Position numbers and translations under genes: made by a program. The notes below the pieces were generated by a model. The model saw nothing but the letters and a program-made list of their open reading frames with translations. It searched no databases and was not told the origin of the DNA. A stretch of DNA of 64,000 nt, taken from NCBI GenBank assembly GCA_951406725.2, contig OX597830.1:2480001-2544000 (forward strand), written 5' to 3'. Each line of letters begins with the position of its first letter. Within the stretch, counting starts at the first letter, position 1. Of the stretch, positions 1,182 to 60,122 are shown piece after piece. The DNA is from Octopus vulgaris (taxonomy: Eukaryota).

Positions 1182-2446
1182 TCAGGCTGAGTAAAAAGTA
1201 AGCTATGTTTTGAAACATGAAATTCATTACAATATATTTTAACAATGTGGAAATTTTATTCATCAAAGTATGAACAAATCAACACATTTTTGGCAACAAG
1301 TTACAAGTTTGTTTCTTCCAGTAACATAAAAATCTGGAGTTCCTGAGCTGATGAACTCTTTGAACATACTTCCAGCATCGGTTTGATTTTTGAACCCCTT
1401 CTCTCGCAGGAAACAATCAAGGTGCTTGGAAAAGCAGTAGTCGGTAGGAGAAGGGTCTGGAGAATAAGCTGGGTGGGGAAGAACTTCATAGACAAGTTTC
1501 CTCAACTTCTGGAGCGTCATTTGTGAAATGTGTGGTCGAGTATTGTCATGAAGAATGATTGGCCCTATTCTGTTGACCAGTCTGGGACGGAGGAGTAGCA
1601 GTTTTTCCTTCATTTCAGCAATTTCATGGCAATATGTTTCTGCAGTAATGGTTTTTCTGGGTTTTAGGAAGTTATAGTAGATGAGTCCAGCAGTACACCA
1701 ACAAACAGTCACCAAAACCTTCTTTTTGAAGAGCTTGATTTAGGGAAGGTTTTTGGTGCTTCATTTTAGTCCAATCCCAGTGATGAACGTTTTATATTAT
1801 TATATAGAATCCACTTTCCATCGTAAGTTACAAAACAGCCAAGAAATGGATTGGTCTGGTTATGGAGAAGAAGTGATGAGCAAATTTCATATCTACGCAT
1901 TTTCTGATTTTCATTCAAATTGTGTGGTAGCCATCTGTGAAGCTTTTTTCATTTTCCAATCGCAAGTAAATGGTTGCAGGCAGTCTTCTGGCTAATTTTT
2001 CACCAGCTCTCAAGTGGTTTCACATGGATTTTTCTCAATGATTTTCTTTAATTGATCATCATCGATGACAGATGGGCATACTCACGATCTTCAAGGTTCA
2101 GATCTCCACTGCAAAATCGTTTAAGCCATTTTCGAGCTGACCAATCACTGGTCATTTCCTCACCAGATGTCTCATTGATATCGCAAGCAGTTTCTGCTAA
2201 TTTGCATCCTTTTTTGAAGTTGAATAGCAAAATTGCTCGAATATTGCGCTCTGGCAGTCCCATTTCAGATGATTGTAACAACAGTGAAAAAAATATCAAT
2301 GTTAATTTACTGATGCATTTGAGCAAGTCTACGTCTGTATTATCAAACAATTGCAAAAAGATGTTTTAAAACATTTAAAACCCTGGAAAAATTCTGTTAC
2401 AAATTCTTCATGGTTCAAGACATTGCTTACTTTTTACTCAACCGGA
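1182..2446 (-). mobile_element. Mariner (DD34D) DNA transposon, full length, degenerate
   Basis: About 40-bp imperfect TIRs (tcaggctgagtaaaaagtaagc... / ...gcttactttttactcaaccgga) with TA on both sides; length about 1.27 kb. Confidence 0.92.
1263..2265 (-). pseudogene. Mariner transposase pseudogene (frameshifts and stops)
   Basis: N-terminal HTH (IRAILLFNFKKG...WLKRFCSGDLNLEDR) in ORF 2048-2356; catalytic region ILHDNTRPH and HPAYSPDPSPTDY (YSPDLAPSD motif) in ORF 1263-1715. Confidence 0.9.
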
Positions 2447-3209: not shown

Positions 3210-3254
<45 letters not shown>

Positions 3255-3260
<6 letters not shown>

Positions 3261-3623
3261 GTAAAAAGTGAAAAAACTAGAGAAGGCTTCTTTTAAAAGG
3301 TTAAAAAATATATATTTGAGTCAATATGTCTGAAGAATGTTATAAATTTTTTTCATACAATGACATAGTTTTTGAAGAAATAACTGGTTTCGCGTTCAGC
3401 TTTTCAAATTTCTTACATCGTTATGTTTACATTGAGAAGAGTTCCAGATAAGGGGAGGTAATAAGTGATTTCTTCTGTAAGGGAGATAATCGCTTAAAAT
3501 TTCTTGCATATTGACTCAAATATATATTTTTTAACCTTTTAAAACAAGCCTTCTGTAATTTTTTCACTTTTTACTATTTTCTATATATTCAACCACGTGC
3601 ATTCACACACCAACATTCTCACC
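3255..3623. mobile_element. Non-coding PLE-like fold-back element between (TA)n tracts
   Basis: About 74-bp inverted arms 3255-3328 / 3507-3580 with an internal hammerhead fold; right terminus (tatatattcaaccacgtg...ttctcacc) resembles the PLE 3' end at 20645-20676. Confidence 0.7.
3375..3414 (-). ncRNA. Minimal type I hammerhead ribozyme fold (U3/A8 variant)
   Basis: AAGAAAU-UUGAAAA-GC(UGAAC)GC-GAAA-CCAG-UU/AUUUCUU; perfect 7-bp helix I. Confidence 0.7.
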
Positions 3624-3626
3624 TAT

Positions 3627-19074: not shown

Positions 19075-19075
<1 letters not shown>

Positions 19076-19820
19076 TAAAAGAAACCCTAATCACCAGGAA
19101 CTATCCACCTTCACTTATTGACAAGTGCATTCAACGTGCCCTTCAACTTAACATCAAGGAACTGAGACATCCCAAATCAAAGAAAAACTTACAACCAAAA
19201 GCCTTACCATACATCTCCACACACAACCCTCTCAATAACGAAGCCTTCGACACCATCCTCCACAACATACCCCTCCTAAAAAAAGACCACAGAATGAACA
19301 CAATCCTCCAAACACACACGATCATAAAAAGCAAAAGACAGCCTAGATCCATGAAAAGTCTCCTTACACAAGCCCGAATTCACTCTTCAACACAGAAGCC
19401 GACAGTAAAAAATGTGGAAGACCCAATTGCGGGATATGCGACTATCTAATTGAGGGATCAGAGTTCTCCTTCAAACAGGGACAACGGTTTACAGTGAAAA
19501 GCAACTTCACATGTGCTTCGGAGAACCTAATATACTCACTAACCTGCTCCGGGTGTCAAGAGCAGTACATAGGCCAAACAAAAAATAGTTTGCGTAAACG
19601 AATGGCCCTGCACAGATCCCAGATAAAAATTCCCCAAAACAGAAAAATAGCTTTTAGCCAACACATAGATACTTGCGCCAACAAAAAAACACCAAACTTC
19701 AGAATTTTCCCCCTCTACCAATTTAGGGACGATACAACCTCGAGACAACGAATAAGTAAAGAAAATCTCCTTATTACAAAATACAAGCCACTTCTTAACG
19801 GGTCTACAACAAACAATTAA
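19075..19820 (+). pseudogene. PLE RT-thumb/linker and GIY-YIG endonuclease (one frameshift near 19410)
   Basis: RNYPPSLID, LPYISTHNP, KRQPRSMKSLL, CGRPNCGIC, then NLIYSLTCSGCQEQYIGQT...LRKRMALHRS...KENLLITKYKPLLN; the Cys-rich linker suggests a Neptune/Naiad type. Confidence 0.9.
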
Positions 19821-25478: not shown

Positions 25479-26155
25479 AGATCTATCTATCTATCTATCT
25501 ATCATCATCCTCACCATTTAACGTCCGTTTTCCATGCTGGCATGAGTTAGACCATTTGACAGAAGCTGGCACGTCAGAGGGCTGCACCAAGCACCAGTGC
25601 CCTTCTTTATACCAACCAGTTTACTGAGTGTACAGGTTGTTTTTATGTGGCACCAGCACAGGTGCATTTTAAGAGCTACCAGCATATATAAATGTGTATA
25701 CATACATATATATAAATGCACACACACACACACACATATGTATATATCTATATACATTCATGCACACACACACATACACACACACACACACACACACATT
25801 CTCTTACTTTATTATCATCTTATAATCATCTCATAATAATGGCCTATATGACTCGTATTACTACCTCAATCAATCTAAATGTATATATTTGTCACTACCT
25901 CTCATAAATAGCCTTTTTCTATTTGCAATATGCATTTTCGTTGACCTTTTATATTTTACCCTTACATTTCCACGTGTATTTTATATTTTCTTTTCGTAAC
26001 ATATTTCTACTATATATATATATATATATATATATTGTTATATTTCGGAATGGTCATTTTGCCAGTTTAGCCAATAAAATCACACGCACTATATATATTT
26101 GGTGTTACTTTGCTTCAGTGTTATTTATTTTTTACATCAATCTTAATCTTATTTC

Positions 26156-26200
26156 GGCCAGAGATCTTTCGTCACACTCTTGTGACTGCATCAGTGGTCC
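26156..26200 (-). ncRNA. Hammerhead-like fold, left arm
   Basis: GGACCA-CUGAUGCA-GUCAC(AAGAGU)GUGAC-GAAA-GAUC-UC/UGGCC; palindromic AGAUCU helix III; one extra core nucleotide. Confidence 0.65.
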
Positions 26201-26292
26201 TTTGCTTTCTTCTTTCTTATTTGTGTCTCTCCTTACTAACCGTCAGCTGACGGTTAGTAAGGAGAGACACAAATAAGAAAGAAGAAAACAAA

Positions 26293-26337
26293 GGACCACT
26301 GATGCGGTCACAGGAGTGTGACGAAAGAACTCTGGCC
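26293..26337 (+). ncRNA. Hammerhead-like fold, right arm
   Basis: GGACCA-CUGAUGCG-GUCAC(AGGAGU)GUGAC-GAAA-GAAC-UC/UGGCC. Confidence 0.6.
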
Positions 26338-26498
26338 TAAATAAGATTAAGATTGATGTAAAAAATAAATAACACTGAAGCAAAGTAACACCAAATATAT
26401 ATAGTGCGTGTGATTTTATTGGCTAAACTGGCAAAATGACCATTCCGAAATATAACAATATCTGTTTCAACACACGACTTCACATAAAATAATCTTGT

Positions 26499-26543
<45 letters not shown>

Positions 26544-29774: not shown

Positions 29775-30050
29775 CATTATTTACATTTGACAGATATTTG
29801 TCCTCATCTTGTTTGTTGTTAACACAACATTTCGGCTGATATACTCTCCAGCCTTCATCAGGTGCCTTGGGGAAATTTCAAACCTGGGTTCTCATTCCTA
29901 AGGTATTTTTTTTGACATTATTATTATTATTATATTATTATTATCATGGTTATTATAATTATTATTATTATTCAGGTCACTGCTTGAAATCAAACTCGGA
30001 ATCTTGGGGTTAGTAGCCCATGCACTTAACCACTATGCCATATGCCCGTG
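29775..30050 (-). mobile_element. tRNA-headed SINE carrying a hammerhead, with 8-bp TSD
   Basis: Head GGGCATATGGCATAGTGGTTAAG...GAGTTTGATTTC, then (TAA)n, then body; GGGATTTA at 29767-29774 and 30051-30058. Confidence 0.75.
29821..29866 (-). ncRNA. Minimal type I hammerhead ribozyme fold
   Basis: GGCAC-CUGAUGAA-GGCUG(GAGAGUAUAU)CAGCC-GAAAUGUU/GUGUU. Confidence 0.75.
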
Positions 30051-36207: not shown

Positions 36208-36600
36208 TACACACACACACACACACAGAAAGGGCTTCTTTCAGTTTCCATCTATCAAATCCATGCACAAGGCTTTGGTCACCTTGAGGTTACAGTAGAA
36301 GACACTTGCCCAAGGTGCCACACAGTGGAACTGAACCTGGAACCATGCTTCTTACAGTGCACGACCATCCTTGGCACATAAGTAATGTGTGTGTAATGTT
36401 TGGTGAAAATCGGTTGAAAACTGTAGAAATGCATACATATTACAAACACAGACACACACAATCCTTTGTTTTATTTTTATAGATATGTGTGCATGTGCTC
36501 ATGCATGTGTGTGTGAGTGTGTGTCCCCAGGATTCTCAGTAAGGAGTCCACATGACCCTTGAGAGCAAGCTTCTTACCACACAGCTATGCCTGTCTATGC
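35960..36600 (-). mobile_element. SINE family A interrupted by a 204-bp inverted local copy
   Basis: SINE head broken between ggaaccatg (36340) and agcaagcttcttacc (36564). Confidence 0.75.
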
Positions 36601-37282: not shown

Positions 37283-37535
37283 ACTATTGGTTCTCAACCA
37301 TTATTTTTTTTTTACCTGTGGATCCCTTTCATTCCTATTTTACTCAACTTGACCCTCTAAGTCATTTAATGGTTTTAAAAATCCTATTATATTTTTTTTT
37401 AAATAAATATTATTAGGAATTGTGTAAAAAAAATAAAAAATTGTGCATTGCAGAAGCATAATCAATTTATTAGAGATTTTAACAAAATCTCTTATGTGCT
37501 CTCAAGGCTCATGTGGACTCCTTACTGAATCATTG
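37283..37535. mobile_element. Degenerate hAT-like MITE
   Basis: Begins tggttctcaacc, resembling CAGTGGTTCTCAAC termini; the other end is decayed. Confidence 0.4.
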
Positions 37536-37581
37536 ACACACACACTCACACACACACACATGCATGAGCACATGCACACAT

Positions 37582-38038
37582 ATCTATAAAAATAAAACAA
37601 AGGATTGTGTTTCTGTGTTTGTAATATGTATGCATTTCTACAGTTTTCAACTGATTTCCACCAAACATTGCACACACATTACTTATGTGCCAAGGATGGT
37701 TATGCTCAGTAATTTTTTGCCCAGAGCTCCTGTGTAATGTGAGAAACAGGGAAAAAAGGGGTTTTACACAGCCTTTACTCTAAAGACTGCAGTTTTCAAC
37801 TGATTCTCTCCCTTTTCTATGCTTCTCTTATTTACATACATTCCCCCCCCCCCCTGTAATAGTTTCTTTCTTTTAGTCTGTCTTCTTTCCTTCCTTTCTT
37901 CCTTCCATTTTTCTTTCTTTCTTTCTGTTTAACTAAAGGCAATGCACCAGTATGGCCACAGTCAGAAGATTGAAACAAGTAAAAGAATTAAAAAACTATG
38001 CCATTTTTATTGCGAGCAACGCCAGGCATCTCTGCTTG
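37582..38038 (+). mobile_element. Non-autonomous Helitron, degenerate
   Basis: 5' TCTATAAAAATAAAA; 3' gagcaacgccaggcatctctgcttg similar to the 3' end of the 63234 copy. Confidence 0.6.
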
Positions 38039-43277: not shown

Positions 43278-43324
<47 letters not shown>

Positions 43325-43457
43325 ATGAGGGTGTCTAAAAGACACCAACATGCCGAAATAGCAGTCGAAACACTGACTATAGTACCACGTTAAATGTTCA
43401 CATCGCACCATGAGGTAAAGCGGAGGGACAAAACATACAAGCAAAAATTATTGAATA

Positions 43458-43517
43458 ATTCAAGATCCAAGGATTTCTGGTTCTGCTTTAGATAAGCTTT
43501 ACCGTCATCAATTGAAT
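43458..43517 (-). ncRNA. Type I hammerhead fold, left arm
   Basis: Mirror image of 43636-43695. Confidence 0.7.
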
Positions 43518-43635
43518 ATATCAAGGGTACATCAATACAGATATACCTCATATGTAAGTATATCTTTTGTAAGTATATATGTAAGTATATCGTTTGCTGT
43601 GCATATATATATCTGTATTGATGTACCCTTGATAT

Positions 43636-43695
43636 ATTCAATTGATGACGGTAAAGCTTATCTAAAGCAGAACCAGAAATCCTTGGATCTTGAAT
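43636..43695 (+). ncRNA. Type I hammerhead fold, right arm
   Basis: AUUCAA-UUGAUGA-CGGU...ACCA-GAAA-UCC(UU)GGA-UC/UUGAAU; helices I, II and III all present; U3 variant. Confidence 0.72.
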
Positions 43696-43828
43696 TATTC
43701 AATAATTTTTGCTTGTATGTTTTGTCCCTCCGCTTTACCTCATGGTGCGATGTGAACATTTAACGTGGTACTATAGTCAGTGTTTCAACTGCTATTTCGG
43801 CATGTTGGTGTCTTTTAGACACCCTCAT

Positions 43829-43869
<41 letters not shown>

Positions 43870-43873
<4 letters not shown>

Positions 43874-45259: not shown

Positions 45260-46975
45260 AGCCATTATGAGAGAATGTGGAGAATGAATGGGAGGAGGAG
45301 AGCCTGAAAATTGTTGACCCAGTAGAGGGACCAGCTATCCGAATAGAGAGCTCCCTAGTAGTTAAGGCAATTAAGGGTATGAAACCATGAAAAGCCCCCG
45401 GCCCATCAAGAATCACTGCTGAGATGCTTAAAACATCTGGTGGTGTGGGCTATGGCCTAGTCACCCGCATTGTAAACCAAGTATTTCATAATGGAGTCAT
45501 ACCGAATGACTGGCGTAGCAGCACCATAGTCAACTGCTACAAGGATAAAGGTGATGCTCTAGATAGAAATAACTACAGGGGTATTAAACTGTTGGATCAG
45601 GTGATGAAGGTCACAGAGAGGGTCATAGCCCATCTCATTAGGGAGAGAATTTGCTTAGATGAGATGCAGTTCAGTTTTGTGCCAGGTAGAAGCACCACTG
45701 ATGCCATATTGCTGGTTCGACAACTGCAGGAGAAATACCTAGCTAAAGATAAACCCCTCTACATAGCTTTCGTGGACTTGGAGAAAGCCTTTGACAGGGT
45801 CCCCCGATCCCTTATCTGGTGAGCGATGTGGAAACTGGAGATTGACGAATGGTTAATAAGGGCTGTACAGGCCCTATACAGAGAGGCTGTCAGCACGGTT
45901 AGGATTGACAATGAGTATAGTGAAGAATTCCGGGTAGAAGTAGGAGTCCACCAAGGTTCAGCACTCAGTCCCCTTTTATTCATCATAGTCCTCCGGGCAA
46001 TAACAGAGGAATTCAAGATGGGTTGTCCCTGGGAGCTCCTCTATGCTGATGACCTGGCCCTCATAGCAGAATCACTACCGGAACTAGAAAAGAAATTTCG
46101 GGTGTGGAAGCAAGGTTTAGGGCCTTAGAGTAAATGTAGCAAAGAACAAAGTTATAGTAAGCAGAAAGGTGAACTCATCACACACACCCTCAGGCAGTTG
46201 GCCCTGCTCGATCTGTAGGAAAGGTGAAGGTAGAAACTCCATAAGATGCACCCAGTGTAAGCTATGGATGCATAAGAGGTGCAGCAATATCAAAGGAAAA
46301 TTAACTGATAAGATAGCTTTCATGTGCGGCAGATGCACAGGGGCAATAGACACCACAGATACTCAGAAAACAGATTCCATCTCACTCTAGGGGGAGAAAC
46401 TAGAAGTAGTTGATAGTTTCCACTACCTAGGAGACCAAGTTAGTAGTGGAGGTGGATGCTCAGAGTGTCACCACTAGAATACGAATAGCCTGGGCAAAGT
46501 TTAGAAAGCTCCTACCCCTACTGGCGACAAAGGGTCTCTCGCTCAGAGTGAAAGGTAGATTGTATGATGCATGTGTGCGAACCGCTATGCTTCACAGTAG
46601 TGAAACATAGGCTGTGACTGCAGAGGACATGCGTAGACTTGAAAGAAATGAAGCTAGCATGATCCACTGGATGTGTAATGTCAGTGTGCACACACGACAG
46701 AGTGTAAGCACCCTGAGAGAAATGCTGGACATAAGAAGCATCAGATGTGGTGTGCAAGAGAGACGTTTGCGCTGGTATGGTCATGTACTGCGGATGGATG
46801 AGGAGAGATGTGTGAAGAAGTGCCACTCCCAAACAGTTGGAGGTATCAGGTGGAGAGGTAGACCCAGGAAGACATGGGATGAGGTAGTCAAGCATAACCT
46901 TCGAACATTGGGCCTCATAAAGGCAATGATGGAAGACCAAGATCTCTGGAGATATGCTGTGACTTCAAAGACCTG
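45260..46975 (+). pseudogene. RTE reverse transcriptase with inserted PHD-like finger
   Basis: NYRGIKLL, QFSFVPGRSTTDAI, AFVDLEKAFDRVP, GVHQGSALSPLLF, LLYADDL, FHYLG, RLRWYGHVLRM, RGRPRKTW; several stops and frameshifts. Confidence 0.93.
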
Positions 46976-57866: not shown

Positions 57867-58245
57867 ATTACTATAGGATAAAATTTTTTTCGGGAAAAAA
57901 ATTTTATCAATGGCCAGCATATCAAAAAATGCCTTTAAAGGTAAAATTTATACATAATTTACAAGATAAGGGCAGAAGAAAAATTCTAATGCCAAATATG
58001 CCGCAACAAAAAATTGTCGATAACCATTAAATTTATGTGTCTCGAAACAAACCGATAGAAATCTCTAAAAAAATTCGTTATTACCGCATTGGTCCAATTT
58101 CGGGATTAATTCATAAGAAATTTTCCCCTCTTCAGTGGCAAATATGCAAGATATAAATGAAATACTTACTCATGGTTATCAACAATTTTTTGTTTTGGCA
58201 TATTTGGCATTAGAATTTTTCTTCTGCCCTTATCTTGTAAATTAT
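57867..58245. mobile_element. PLE-like fold-back element (74-bp arms 57954-58027 / 58172-58245) inside (TA)n
   Basis: Inverted arms read directly; internal hammerhead-like fold. Confidence 0.75.
58081..58141 (-). ncRNA. Hammerhead-like fold (atypical G at the cleavage position)
   Basis: UUGCCA-CUGAAGA-GGGG...CCC-GAAA-UUGG(A)CCAA-UG/CGGUAA. Confidence 0.55.
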
Positions 58246-58288
58246 ATATATATATATATATACATCTATATATATATATACGTTTATA

Positions 58289-58764
58289 TATTTGTTGTGC
58301 AAGATTTTTTATGTGAAGTCGCGTGTTGAAACAGATATTGTTATATTTCAGAATGGTCATTTTGCCAGTTTAGCCAATAAAATCACACGCACTATATATA
58401 TTTGGTGTTACTTTGCTTCAGTGTTATTTATTTTTTACATCAATCTTAATCTTATTTAGGCCAGAGTTCTTTCGTCACACTCCTGTGACTGCATCAGTGG
58501 TCCTTTGTTTTCTTCTCACTTACTTGTGTCTCTCCTTACTAACCGTCAGCTGACGGTTAGTAAGGAGAGACACAAATAAGTGAGAAGAAAACAAAGGACC
58601 ACTGATGCGGTCACAGGAGTGTGACGAAAGAACTCTGGCCTAAATAAGATTAAGATTGATGTAAAAAATAAATAACACTGAAGCAAAGTAACACCAAATA
58701 TATATAGTGCGTGTGATTTTATTGGCTAAACTGGCAAAATGACCATTCTGAAATATAACAATAT
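58289..58764. mobile_element. Second copy of the spacerless palindromic element (arms 58335-58549 / 58550-58764), opposite orientation
   Basis: Same centre cag|ctg and same 215-bp arms, with the extension on the left; hammerhead-like folds at 58459-58503(-) and 58596-58640(+). Confidence 0.9.
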
Positions 58765-58773
58765 ATATATATA

Positions 58774-60122
58774 GATCTGTAGTAAAGGCATAGGTAGAAA
58801 CTCTATAAGATGTACCCAGTGTAAGCTATGGACACATAAGATGTGCAGTAATATCAAAGGAAGGCTAACTGGGATGATAGTTTTTGTATGTGGCAGATGC
58901 TCAGGAGCAATAAACACTGAAAATCTGCAGAAAACAACTTCTGTCACTTTCCAGGGGGAAAAACTAGAAGTAGTTGATAGCTTCCATTACCTAGGTGACC
59001 AAGTCAGTAGTGGGGGTGGGTGTGCTGAAAGTGTAACTGCTAGAGTAAGAATAGCCTGTGCAAATTTCAGGGAGCTCTTACCTCTGCTGGTGACAAAAGG
59101 CCTCTTGCTCAGAGTAAAAGGCAGACTGTATGACGCATGTGTACGAACAGCCATGCTACATGGCAGTGAAACATGGGCCATGACTGCTGAGGACATGCGT
59201 AAGCTCACGAGGAATGAAGCCAGTATGCTCCGATGGATGTGTAATGTCAGTGTGCATACTTGACAGAGTGTAAGTACCTTGAGAGAAAAGTTGGACCTAA
59301 GAAGCATCAGCTGTGGTCATGTGGCGAGAATGGATGAGGACAGCTGTGTGAGAAAGTGTCACACCCTGTGGAAGAGGTAGACCCAGGAAGACCTGGGATG
59401 AAGTGGTGAAGCATGACCTTCAAACATTAGGCCTCACCAAGGCAATGACTAGTGACCAGGACCTTTGGAAATATGCTGTGCATGAGAAGACCCAGCAGGA
59501 CAAGTGACTCCATCCCGTGTCCCTTGCCAGGGATGTAGCCAGCCCACATATGCATGCCTTTTCTTCCTTGGACATGTGAAGACCTGTTGAGGCAAGCGAA
59601 ATCGAACCTCATCCGACGACTGGTACCCATGCCAACCTCCCTTCATTGGACACTAAACTCTGCTTGTGAAGACCTGTTGGGGCAAATCGGAATCGAAATT
59701 GAACCAATCCTAAGACTGGCACCCGGCAGTTGCCAGTGCTGCTGGACTGACTCCTGTGCAGGTGGCAAGTAAAGAAACACCGTTTCGACCCTGTGCTTCA
59801 GGAGACCTATTGAGTCAAGTACACCAACATCAAAAATCAATGGAAATTGTAGTTGTGATCCCCGTGCTGATGGCACGTAAAAAGCACCATCCGAACGTGG
59901 CCGATGCCAGCGCCGCCTTGACTGGCTTCCGTGCCAGTGGAACGTAAAAAGCACCCACTACACTCACGGAGTGGTTGGCGTTAGGAAGGACATCCAGCTG
60001 TAGAGACATTGCCAGATCAGGCTGGAGCCTGGTGCAGCCTTCTGGCTTCTCAGATCCTGGCCGAATTGTCCAACCCATACTAGCATGGAGAACGGACGTT
60101 AAATGATGATGATGATGATGAT
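58774..60122 (+). mobile_element. RTE LINE 3' portion (relative of 45253-47600)
   Basis: LEVVDSFHYLGDQVSSGGG...RVKGRLYDACVRTAMLHGSETWA; same 3' tail and (GAT)n. Confidence 0.9.

What the first reader, a model, noticed from the sequence alone, without database searches (positions are those of the whole stretch)
26032..26510. Spacerless 430-bp palindrome present twice, with arms that match within each copy
Seen: copies at 26032-26461 and 58335-58764 fold at the same point (ccgtcag|ctgacgg), have the same 215-bp short arm and the same ~50-bp one-sided extension, in opposite orientation. Diagnostic variants are shared by both arms of a copy but differ between copies: ttcGgaat and ttctTTctta in copy 1, versus ttcAgaat and ttctCActta in copy 2. 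Inference: one arm is regenerated from the other at a programmed snap-back site at insertion (hairpin-primed second strand), or the arms are homogenised by conversion. Long spacerless palindromes are normally unstable, so recurrence is notable.
Basis: partly seen in the sequence, partly recalled or inferred. Interest (0 to 1): 0.8.

Follow-up and report, generated by a model that had tools for sequence, protein, structure and literature searches.

The report
Head-to-head Penelope-like retroelement stubs
The two 430-base palindromes are real copies of a very common repeat with a hammerhead-ribozyme-like motif in each arm and a short tail on one side, and they are most likely stubs of a Penelope-like jumping gene, whose head-to-head layout is already described, so the finding is mostly ordinary.

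Summary
Confirmed: two spacerless palindromes (215-bp arms; 5 and 2 mismatches), same centre, one-sided 44-45-bp tail, both in (TA)n. Thousands of contigs from 4 of 4 runs lie on the arm, and other copies end at the same short-arm base. This matches the published layout of Penelope-like elements (PLEs): inverted pseudo-LTR, junction palindrome, tail. No RT/GIY-YIG partner was linked, so membership rests on anatomy. Three sites (likely two events) group arms by locus, none by side, one crosswise. The copies share rare alleles, so they are siblings and not two independent folds. Copy 1's short arm has a patch of family-common alleles that its partner lacks, which argues against plain copying. 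I favour two-strand priming at the two RT start sites, with joining at the centre (inferred), over hairpin self-priming. The scan noted the same pattern on other DNA before.

The parts
26032..26246 (-). Copy 1 short arm (inverted pseudo-LTR-like repeat, 215 bp, no tail); carries a divergent patch at arm bases 42-92
26247..26461 (+). Copy 1 long arm (pseudo-LTR-like repeat, 215 bp)
26462..26506 (+). Copy 1 one-sided tail (45 bp; 1 extra base against copy 2 puts a stop in the frame)
26243..26250 (.). Centre of copy 1 (TCAG|CTGA); perfect palindrome radius 41 bp
26293..26337 (+). Minimal hammerhead-like motif, copy 1 long arm (core position 9 is C, not A)
26156..26200 (-). Minimal hammerhead-like motif, copy 1 short arm; the only one of 4 with a palindromic helix III (AGAUCU)
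26436..26492 (+). ATG-initiated frame start (arm base 190), 18 codons then stop in this copy
26011..26031 (.). (TA)n target tract, left of copy 1
26507..26536 (.). (TA)n target tract, right of copy 1
58291..58334 (-). Copy 2 one-sided tail (44 bp; may extend to 58282)
58335..58549 (-). Copy 2 long arm (215 bp)
58550..58764 (+). Copy 2 short arm (215 bp, no tail)
58459..58503 (-). Minimal hammerhead-like motif, copy 2 long arm
58596..58640 (+). Minimal hammerhead-like motif, copy 2 short arm
58289..58360 (-). ATG-initiated frame open through arm end and tail ([24 protein letters not shown]), likely the first codons of the parent ORF
58765..58774 (.). (TA)n tract right of copy 2

Best explanation
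Each copy is two 215-bp arms joined head to head, with a 44-45-bp tail on one side, in a (TA)n tract, and is likely a protein-less insertion of a Penelope-like retroelement (PLE), probably built from two cDNAs primed on the two cut strands of the target. Shown: the layout, the hammerhead-like core in each arm, the ATG frame running into the tail, the shared short-arm end across the family. Inferred steps: (1) a PLE RT/GIY-YIG protein from a full-length copy elsewhere binds RNA holding the pseudo-LTR and the first codons of its ORF; (2) it cuts both strands of (TA)n; (3) one strand primes reverse transcription at the tail end (long arm) and the other at arm base 215 (short arm); (4) both cDNAs run to arm base 1 and pair with each other through a self-complementary end (TCAG|CTGA or longer), and fill-in gives a spacerless palindrome. 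Arms then usually match within a locus because they come from one source, but can differ where two templates differ. Confidence: PLE origin about 0.88; this route, given PLE origin, about 0.55.
For: PLE origin: a core scan hit 4 of 4 arms, 6 sites in the window against 0.27 expected; the strict scan hit 5 against 0 in 30 Markov controls. The motif has the base between core positions 9 and 10.1, the G10.1-C11.1 pair and a short helix I, as described for PLE minimal hammerheads, which also occur as opposite-strand pairs 100-700 bp apart (PMC4209133). The canonical A9 holds 30-32% of depth in two DNA-type runs and 73% in one RNA-type run. Rotifer PLEs have 193-218-bp pLTRs, head-to-head inverted pLTRs with junction palindromes, and a 31-bp tail, with 12 ORF codons in the pLTR and 22 with the tail (PMC3846280); here it is 8-9 and 24 codons. 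Of 5 listed family alleles in the frame's first 26 nt, 4 are synonymous third-position changes. A GIY-YIG PLE fragment of another family lies in the window. Route: the anole PLE protein cuts and extends both strands, starts RT at two sites that bound the tail, and is a predicted dimer (PMC11167929). Other copies stop at 26461 and run into (TA)n (39, 53 and 6 contigs in 3 of 4 runs). The tail is reported at either end of PLE units (PMC8557442), which copying a single cDNA cannot give when the tail is on the inverted arm. Copy 1's short arm has family-common alleles at bases 42 (38-46%) and 92 (95%) that its partner lacks; rough post hoc P 0.004-0.009.
Against: No link to an RT/GIY-YIG ORF was found. 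The frame start matched nothing real in two database searches or among 122 PLE proteins (best E 1.7 by blastp, 0.086 by phmmer), most of which seem to lack their N-terminus. Rfam hammerhead models did not hit at E up to 10. All 4 arms have C at core position 9, and 3 of 4 lack the palindromic helix III. The tail is longer than the 30-40 bp in print. The native sequence upstream of the centre was not seen, so step 4 is untested. The patch in copy 1 is one case, and later ectopic conversion or assembly polishing could also make it; 2 of its 5 changes (67, 83) are not among the variant rows shown, and 15 rows were hidden. Only 4 arms were compared. Allele shares are contig-depth ratios from runs that may be other individuals or species.
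Confidence: 0.5

Rival explanations
1. PLE stub made by hairpin self-priming (the first reader's snap-back; the published proposal for PLE junction palindromes): one cDNA folds on its own end at base 1 and is copied back to base 215, then joined to the other target end.
For: By-locus sharing at bases 32, 33 and 200, none by side. Bases 93-215 are identical between arms in both copies. PMC3846280 reads junction palindromes as self-priming. Only 1 strand-change joint inside the arm was listed among 8782 contigs of X2, and 0 among 7257, 1052 and 190 in the other runs, so asymmetric folds inside the arm look rare.
Against: It needs the copy-back to stop exactly at the family-wide tail-less end. 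It predicts identical arms at birth, yet copy 1's arms differ at 5 clustered sites (span P about 0.011, post hoc), 2 of them family-common alleles. The paper itself notes that self-priming would need an antisense template.
Confidence: 0.25
2. The whole palindrome moves as a unit (a non-autonomous PLE derivative), and arm-to-arm conversion and flipping homogenise each locus afterwards.
For: The copies are siblings sharing rare alleles at bases 109 and 167, which explains the common centre by inheritance. Site 60 (A in one arm, G in the other, in both copies, on opposite sides) fits a flipped centre.
Against: 0 of 4 informative sites group by side. Site 60 is part of a CpG, so repeated decay is a simpler reading. 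It needs conversion at bases 32-33 and at 200 in a young copy.
Confidence: 0.13
3. A spacerless MITE (DNA transposon derivative with long terminal inverted repeats, inserted at TA).
For: TA flanks and long inverted repeats; MITEs can lose the whole interior (PMC8969392 passages); a mariner-like transposase fragment lies in the window.
Against: The one-sided tail breaks terminal symmetry in both copies. Hammerhead core and ATG frame read outward in each arm. Family members run on past the tail region (133 and 149 contigs).
Confidence: 0.05
4. Assembly or library fold-back artefact.
For: No read or contig seen here crosses the centre; the runs are held as contigs only.
Against: Flanks are not mirrored beyond (TA)n. 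The arms differ at 5 and 2 sites. Two loci share the centre and both ends. The short-arm end recurs in runs of three studies.
Confidence: 0.03

Closest known systems
Insertion units of canonical endonuclease-positive Penelope-like elements (Adineta Pen2a/Pen3a, PMC3846280; general scheme in PMC8557442)
   Same: About 200-bp pseudo-LTR, adjacent inverted copy head to head, palindrome at the junction, tail at one end, first ORF codons in repeat plus tail, AT-rich or (TA)n targets.
   Different: No ORF body or direct second pLTR here; both arms are the same length with no spacer; the tail is 44-45 bp; the coding partner was not found.
Anolis Poseidon element PAc (PMC11167929)
   Same: Hammerhead near the ORF start; two ends bounding an AC-rich tail; AT-rich targets.
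   Different: In PAc the ORF starts inside the ribozyme and RT starts 111-118 nt into the ORF; here the ATG is about 100 nt past the motif and the ends are about 26 and 70 nt into the frame. The main text read (parts 1-2 of 4) does not treat inverted pLTRs.
Minimal hammerhead ribozymes of metazoan PLEs (PMC4209133)
   Same: Type I layout, extra base between positions 9 and 10.1, G10.1-C11.1, short helix I, very short helix III, pairs on opposite strands.
   Different: Window copies have C at position 9; helix II is 6 bp rather than 7-8; cleavage untested.
Non-LTR retrozymes (10.64898/2026.07.22.740005, abstract)
   Same: Short, non-coding, hammerhead-bearing, pLTR-related repeats.
   Different: Retrozymes are tandem units; these are isolated head-to-head pairs with a tail.
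LINE-1 twin priming (recalled, not tested here)
   Same: Two target-strand primers act on element RNA.
   Different: As recalled, L1 twin priming inverts part of one copy; the route proposed here duplicates the same segment as an inverted repeat.

Membership tests
Penelope-like elements (EN+) | Single ORF with PLE-type RT and GIY-YIG endonuclease, in the element or in a linked autonomous partner | tested here: inconclusive
   No such ORF in either copy. Frame start unmatched. The GIY-YIG fragment at 19075-19820 is another family (no blastn match).
Penelope-like elements (EN+) | Pseudo-LTR of about 200 bp holding a hammerhead motif | tested here: met
   215-bp arm; core scan hit 4 of 4 arms.
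Penelope-like elements (EN+) | Inverted copy adjacent at the 5' end, head to head, with junction palindrome | tested here: met
   Motif and ATG read outward from the centre in all arms.
Penelope-like elements (EN+) | Tail of about 30-40 bp at one end only | tested here: met
   44-45 bp, slightly long; the tail-less end at 26461 recurs in 3 of 4 runs.
Penelope-like elements (EN+) | An ATG frame begins inside the repeat and continues through the tail | tested here: met
   Open 24 codons in copy 2; 4 of 5 listed family alleles are synonymous. That this frame is a PLE ORF is inferred.
Penelope-like elements (EN+) | AT-rich or microsatellite target | tested here: met
   4 of 4 ends run into (TA)n.
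Penelope-like elements (EN+) | Target-site duplication; partial-tandem full-length copies | not testable with these tools
   (TA)n hides duplications; no whole genome held.
Minimal type I hammerhead ribozyme | Core C3-U4-G5-A6-N7-G8-A9 ... G12-A13-A14 and UH site | tested here: inconclusive
   All core bases present except A9, which is C in 4 of 4 window arms; A9 holds about 30% of family depth in X2 and X3, 13% in X9 and 73% in X17.
Minimal type I hammerhead ribozyme | Extra base before helix II, G10.1-C11.1 pair, helix II and short helix I | tested here: met
   Helix II (6 bp) and a bulged 5-6-bp helix I form in the MFE fold of 4 of 4 arms.
Minimal type I hammerhead ribozyme | Palindromic helix III for dimer cleavage | tested here: inconclusive
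   Palindromic in 1 of 4 arms.
Minimal type I hammerhead ribozyme | Match to Rfam hammerhead models | tested here: not met
   No hammerhead among the 4 matches up to E 10 for one arm, nor among the 150 of 225 window matches shown.
Minimal type I hammerhead ribozyme | Self-cleavage | not testable with these tools
   Needs an in vitro assay.
MITE (TIR DNA transposon derivative) | Symmetric terminal inverted repeats forming both ends | tested here: not met
   One end carries a shared 44-45-bp extension in both copies.
Non-LTR retrozyme | Head-to-tail tandem monomers | tested here: not met
   Only head-to-head pairs in the window.

The most novel reading that the evidence does not exclude
PLE inverted pseudo-LTRs are made from two separate cDNAs, primed on the two strands of the cut target at the two RT start sites and joined at a self-complementary 5' end, so the two arms of one insertion can come from different RNA copies. 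This very abundant, ORF-less palindrome family would be a natural archive of thousands of such events and could settle how PLE inverted repeats and tails form.
Probability: 0.4. Interest if true: 0.55.

Novelty: new member of a known kind. Interest (0 to 1): 0.28.

Why it matters
As a structure it is ordinary for Penelope-like elements, and it would be easy to mislabel as a MITE or an assembly error. Its use is as a test set. How PLE inverted repeats and tails arise is left open in the papers read (PMC8557442, PMC11167929). A high-copy family with paired arms and polymorphic markers lets one tell single-cDNA snap-back from two-strand priming and from later conversion, using only a genome assembly.

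Tried and rejected
Whole-genome copy collection: no genome is held. Rfam: only hairpin-type microRNA and snoRNA models below their gathering scores, rejected as chance. Partner protein: 12 candidates, none scored; one hit, P0002 (E 3e-6), is a translated tandem repeat and was rejected; weak matches of the peptide to the RT core of PLE proteins (E 1.7 or worse by blastp) were rejected. Pattern scans of metagenome, viral and prokaryote contigs: 0, 0 and 0 loci; one further 19-base match, L001, has unrelated flanks and was rejected. Expression: no holder is on record as RNA; two runs guessed to be RNA hold the arm, which I do not use as evidence of transcription. Fold-point census: contigs cannot cross a perfect palindrome and letters beyond the reference end were not shown, so symmetric folds were not counted; 409 loose-end rows and 15 variant rows were hidden. 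Segmental duplication as the source of the second copy: rejected, flanks share only (TA)n. Possible splice signals near arm base 11 and a TATA-like run at bases 149-157 were seen by eye and not tested. Literature searches for a two-strand priming model of PLE inverted repeats (supplements of PMC11167929) showed none in their listings. Older subscription papers on Penelope did not appear in these searches and may hold such a model. Our own findings by sequence and by place: nothing. The host is an animal with a microsatellite-rich genome; an octopod is my recalled impression and was not tested.

Full report
Observation. The window holds two spacerless inverted repeats with 215-nt arms, at 26032-26461 and 58335-58764. 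They share the centre, lie in opposite orientation and are 96.6% identical over 476 nt including a one-sided extension of 44-45 nt. All four ends run into (TA)n. Beyond that the flanks are unrelated, so these are two insertions and not a segmental duplication. No further copy lies in the window. The arms also differ within each copy: 5 of 215 sites in copy 1 and 2 of 215 in copy 2. Numbering arm bases outward from the centre, the 4 informative sites are 32, 33 and 200 (by locus) and 60 (crosswise: short arm of copy 1 with long arm of copy 2). None groups by side.

What the arm contains. A scan for a hammerhead core around a hairpin found 6 sites in the window against 0.27 expected; a stricter form found 5 against 0 in 30 Markov controls. 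Four of the sites are the four arms, always read outward. The motif has a 6-bp helix II, a bulged short helix I, an extra base before helix II and a G10.1-C11.1 pair. These are the traits of minimal hammerheads in PLE pseudo-LTRs, which also occur as opposite-strand pairs 100-700 bp apart (PMC4209133, parts 1-2 of 4 read). Against: Rfam hammerhead models did not hit, core position 9 is C in all four arms, and helix III is palindromic in only one. An ATG at arm base 190 opens a frame that runs through the arm end and the tail for 24 codons in copy 2; copy 1 has one extra base and a stop.

The family. Of 24 runs listed, 21 hold the locus or part of it, all as contigs. I laid 4 of them on one arm plus tail: 8782, 7257, 1052 and 190 contigs fit. 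Summed depth is about 10^6 in the DNA-type runs, against 50-70 for single long contigs. The tool warns that this is no copy number; I infer only that the family is very abundant. The canonical A9 holds about 30% of depth in X2 and X3, 13% in X9 and 73% in X17. Loose ends show other copies stopping at 26461 and running into (TA)n (39, 53 and 6 contigs in 3 of 4 runs), which is the short-arm end seen here. Others run on through a variant tail (133, 149, 29 and 4 contigs); by eye the 30 letters shown keep the frame open. Of 5 listed alleles in the frame's first 26 nt, 4 are synonymous third-position changes and the fifth is a CpG change; this is modest support for a coding start. One strand-change joint inside the arm was listed in X2 and none in the other three runs. 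Symmetric folds cannot be seen in contigs, so the share of copies folded at this centre is unknown.

What it is. Rotifer PLEs have 193-218-bp pLTRs, an adjacent inverted pLTR, 18-38-bp palindromes at the pLTR 5' end and an optional 31-bp tail, with the first 12 ORF codons in the pLTR and 22 with the tail; head-to-head junction palindromes were read as self-priming (PMC3846280, 8 passages and the Discussion). The general scheme has an inverted 5'-truncated copy, a 30-40-bp tail at either end and a microsatellite bias, with the mechanism left open (PMC8557442, 12 of 13 passages). The window has other PLE traces: a GIY-YIG fragment (Pfam E 7e-6) 55-58% identical to RT plus GIY-YIG proteins, and two units with short inverted arms and one-sided extensions. 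The defining test, a linked RT/GIY-YIG ORF, stayed open. The frame start found nothing real in two database searches or among 122 PLE proteins, 120 of them the best of 1333 hits, most of which appear to start downstream of the true N-terminus. I put PLE origin at about 0.88 on anatomy.

How the arms arose. First, all four arms carry alleles that are rare in the family: base 109 (0.2-0.3% of depth) and base 167 (2-3%). The copies are siblings, so one shared centre is not two independent folds. Their closeness, 32 kb, suggests a local source, unless the window's individual has a different subfamily mix from the runs. Second, the five differences in copy 1's short arm fall within 51 nt (P about 0.011), and two are family-common alleles (base 42, 38-46%; base 92, 95%) that its partner lacks (P about 0.004-0.009; both tests post hoc, on the 13 common alleles in the rows shown). 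That patch looks templated from another family member. It could come from a second RNA, from later ectopic conversion or from polishing.

Mechanism. In vitro, the anole PLE protein cuts and extends both target strands, starts reverse transcription at two sites that bound the tail, prefers AT-rich DNA, does not need ribozyme cleavage and is a predicted dimer; later steps were left unvalidated (PMC11167929, parts 1-2 of 4; 3 supplementary files searched for 4 terms with no hit). Applied here, one strand primed at the tail end gives the long arm and the other primed at base 215 gives the short arm. If both cDNAs end in a self-complementary sequence, they can pair with each other and leave a spacerless palindrome. 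This explains why the short arm ends at a family-wide end, why tails occur at either end of PLE units, and why arms can differ. The arms extend past the predicted cleavage site to base 1, which fits an uncleaved template. All these steps are inferred; the native sequence across the centre was not seen. I give this route 0.5 overall, hairpin self-priming 0.25, unit transposition with conversion 0.13, MITE 0.05 and artefact 0.03. My searches listed no paper stating this route, but older subscription papers on Penelope did not appear in them.

Other papers seen: PMC13282606 (6 passages; Penelope-like families, some recently active, in an octopus annotation), PMC8969392 (12 of 13 passages), 10.64898/2026.07.22.740005 (abstract, outline, term search; its supplements were not asked for). 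The host taxon is a recalled impression and was not tested.

Verdict. A real feature, most likely a new high-copy member of a known kind. Two earlier notes of this scan describe the same pattern on other DNA (not checked here and not counted as support). Interest is low to moderate, and lies in its use as a test set for an open question about PLE integration.

Noticed in passing
window 19075-19820 (+): 5'-truncated, frameshifted end of a PLE ORF directly after (TA)n: RT-thumb region plus GIY-YIG (Pfam E 7e-6), 55-58% identical to RT/GIY-YIG proteins P0003-P0005; a different family from the palindrome.
   Followed up: partly
window 57870-58253: Second PLE-like unit directly beside copy 2 in the same TA tract: 82-bp inverted arms, 144-bp spacer with a hammerhead-like core (minus strand, 58135), and a roughly 75-bp one-sided extension.
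   Followed up: partly
window 3247-3625: 82-bp inverted arms (3247-3328 / 3507-3588), 178-bp spacer, about 37-bp one-sided extension, TA flanks; same layout, unrelated sequence.
   Followed up: partly
window 43283-43870: 263-bp inverted arms (including TA runs), nearly identical, 62-bp spacer, TA flanks, no tail; PLE stub or MITE, not resolved.
   Followed up: no
window 29790-29880 (-): Clean hammerhead core with canonical CUGAUGA and a 5-bp helix I in a repeat unrelated to the palindrome.
   Followed up: no
window 26247-26461 and 58335-58764: Both copies belong to a minor sublineage (alleles at 0.2-3% of family depth) yet lie 32 kb apart, which hints at local hopping from a nearby source.
   Followed up: partly
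window 1263-1739 (-), 45391-46128 (+), 58775-59263 (+): Mariner-like transposase fragment (PF01359), a LINE-type RT fragment (PF00078) and, next to copy 2, a fragment with a weak PHD-finger match that looks like a LINE end.
   Followed up: no
window 36352-36567 / 37497-37712: Two 216-bp copies of one repeat in inverted orientation, 929 bp apart, 90% identical.
   Followed up: no
proteins P0020, P0047, P0049, P0065, P0097, P0115: PLE-type RT/GIY-YIG proteins filed under bacterial symbionts of bivalves, likely host DNA in those assemblies.
   Followed up: no
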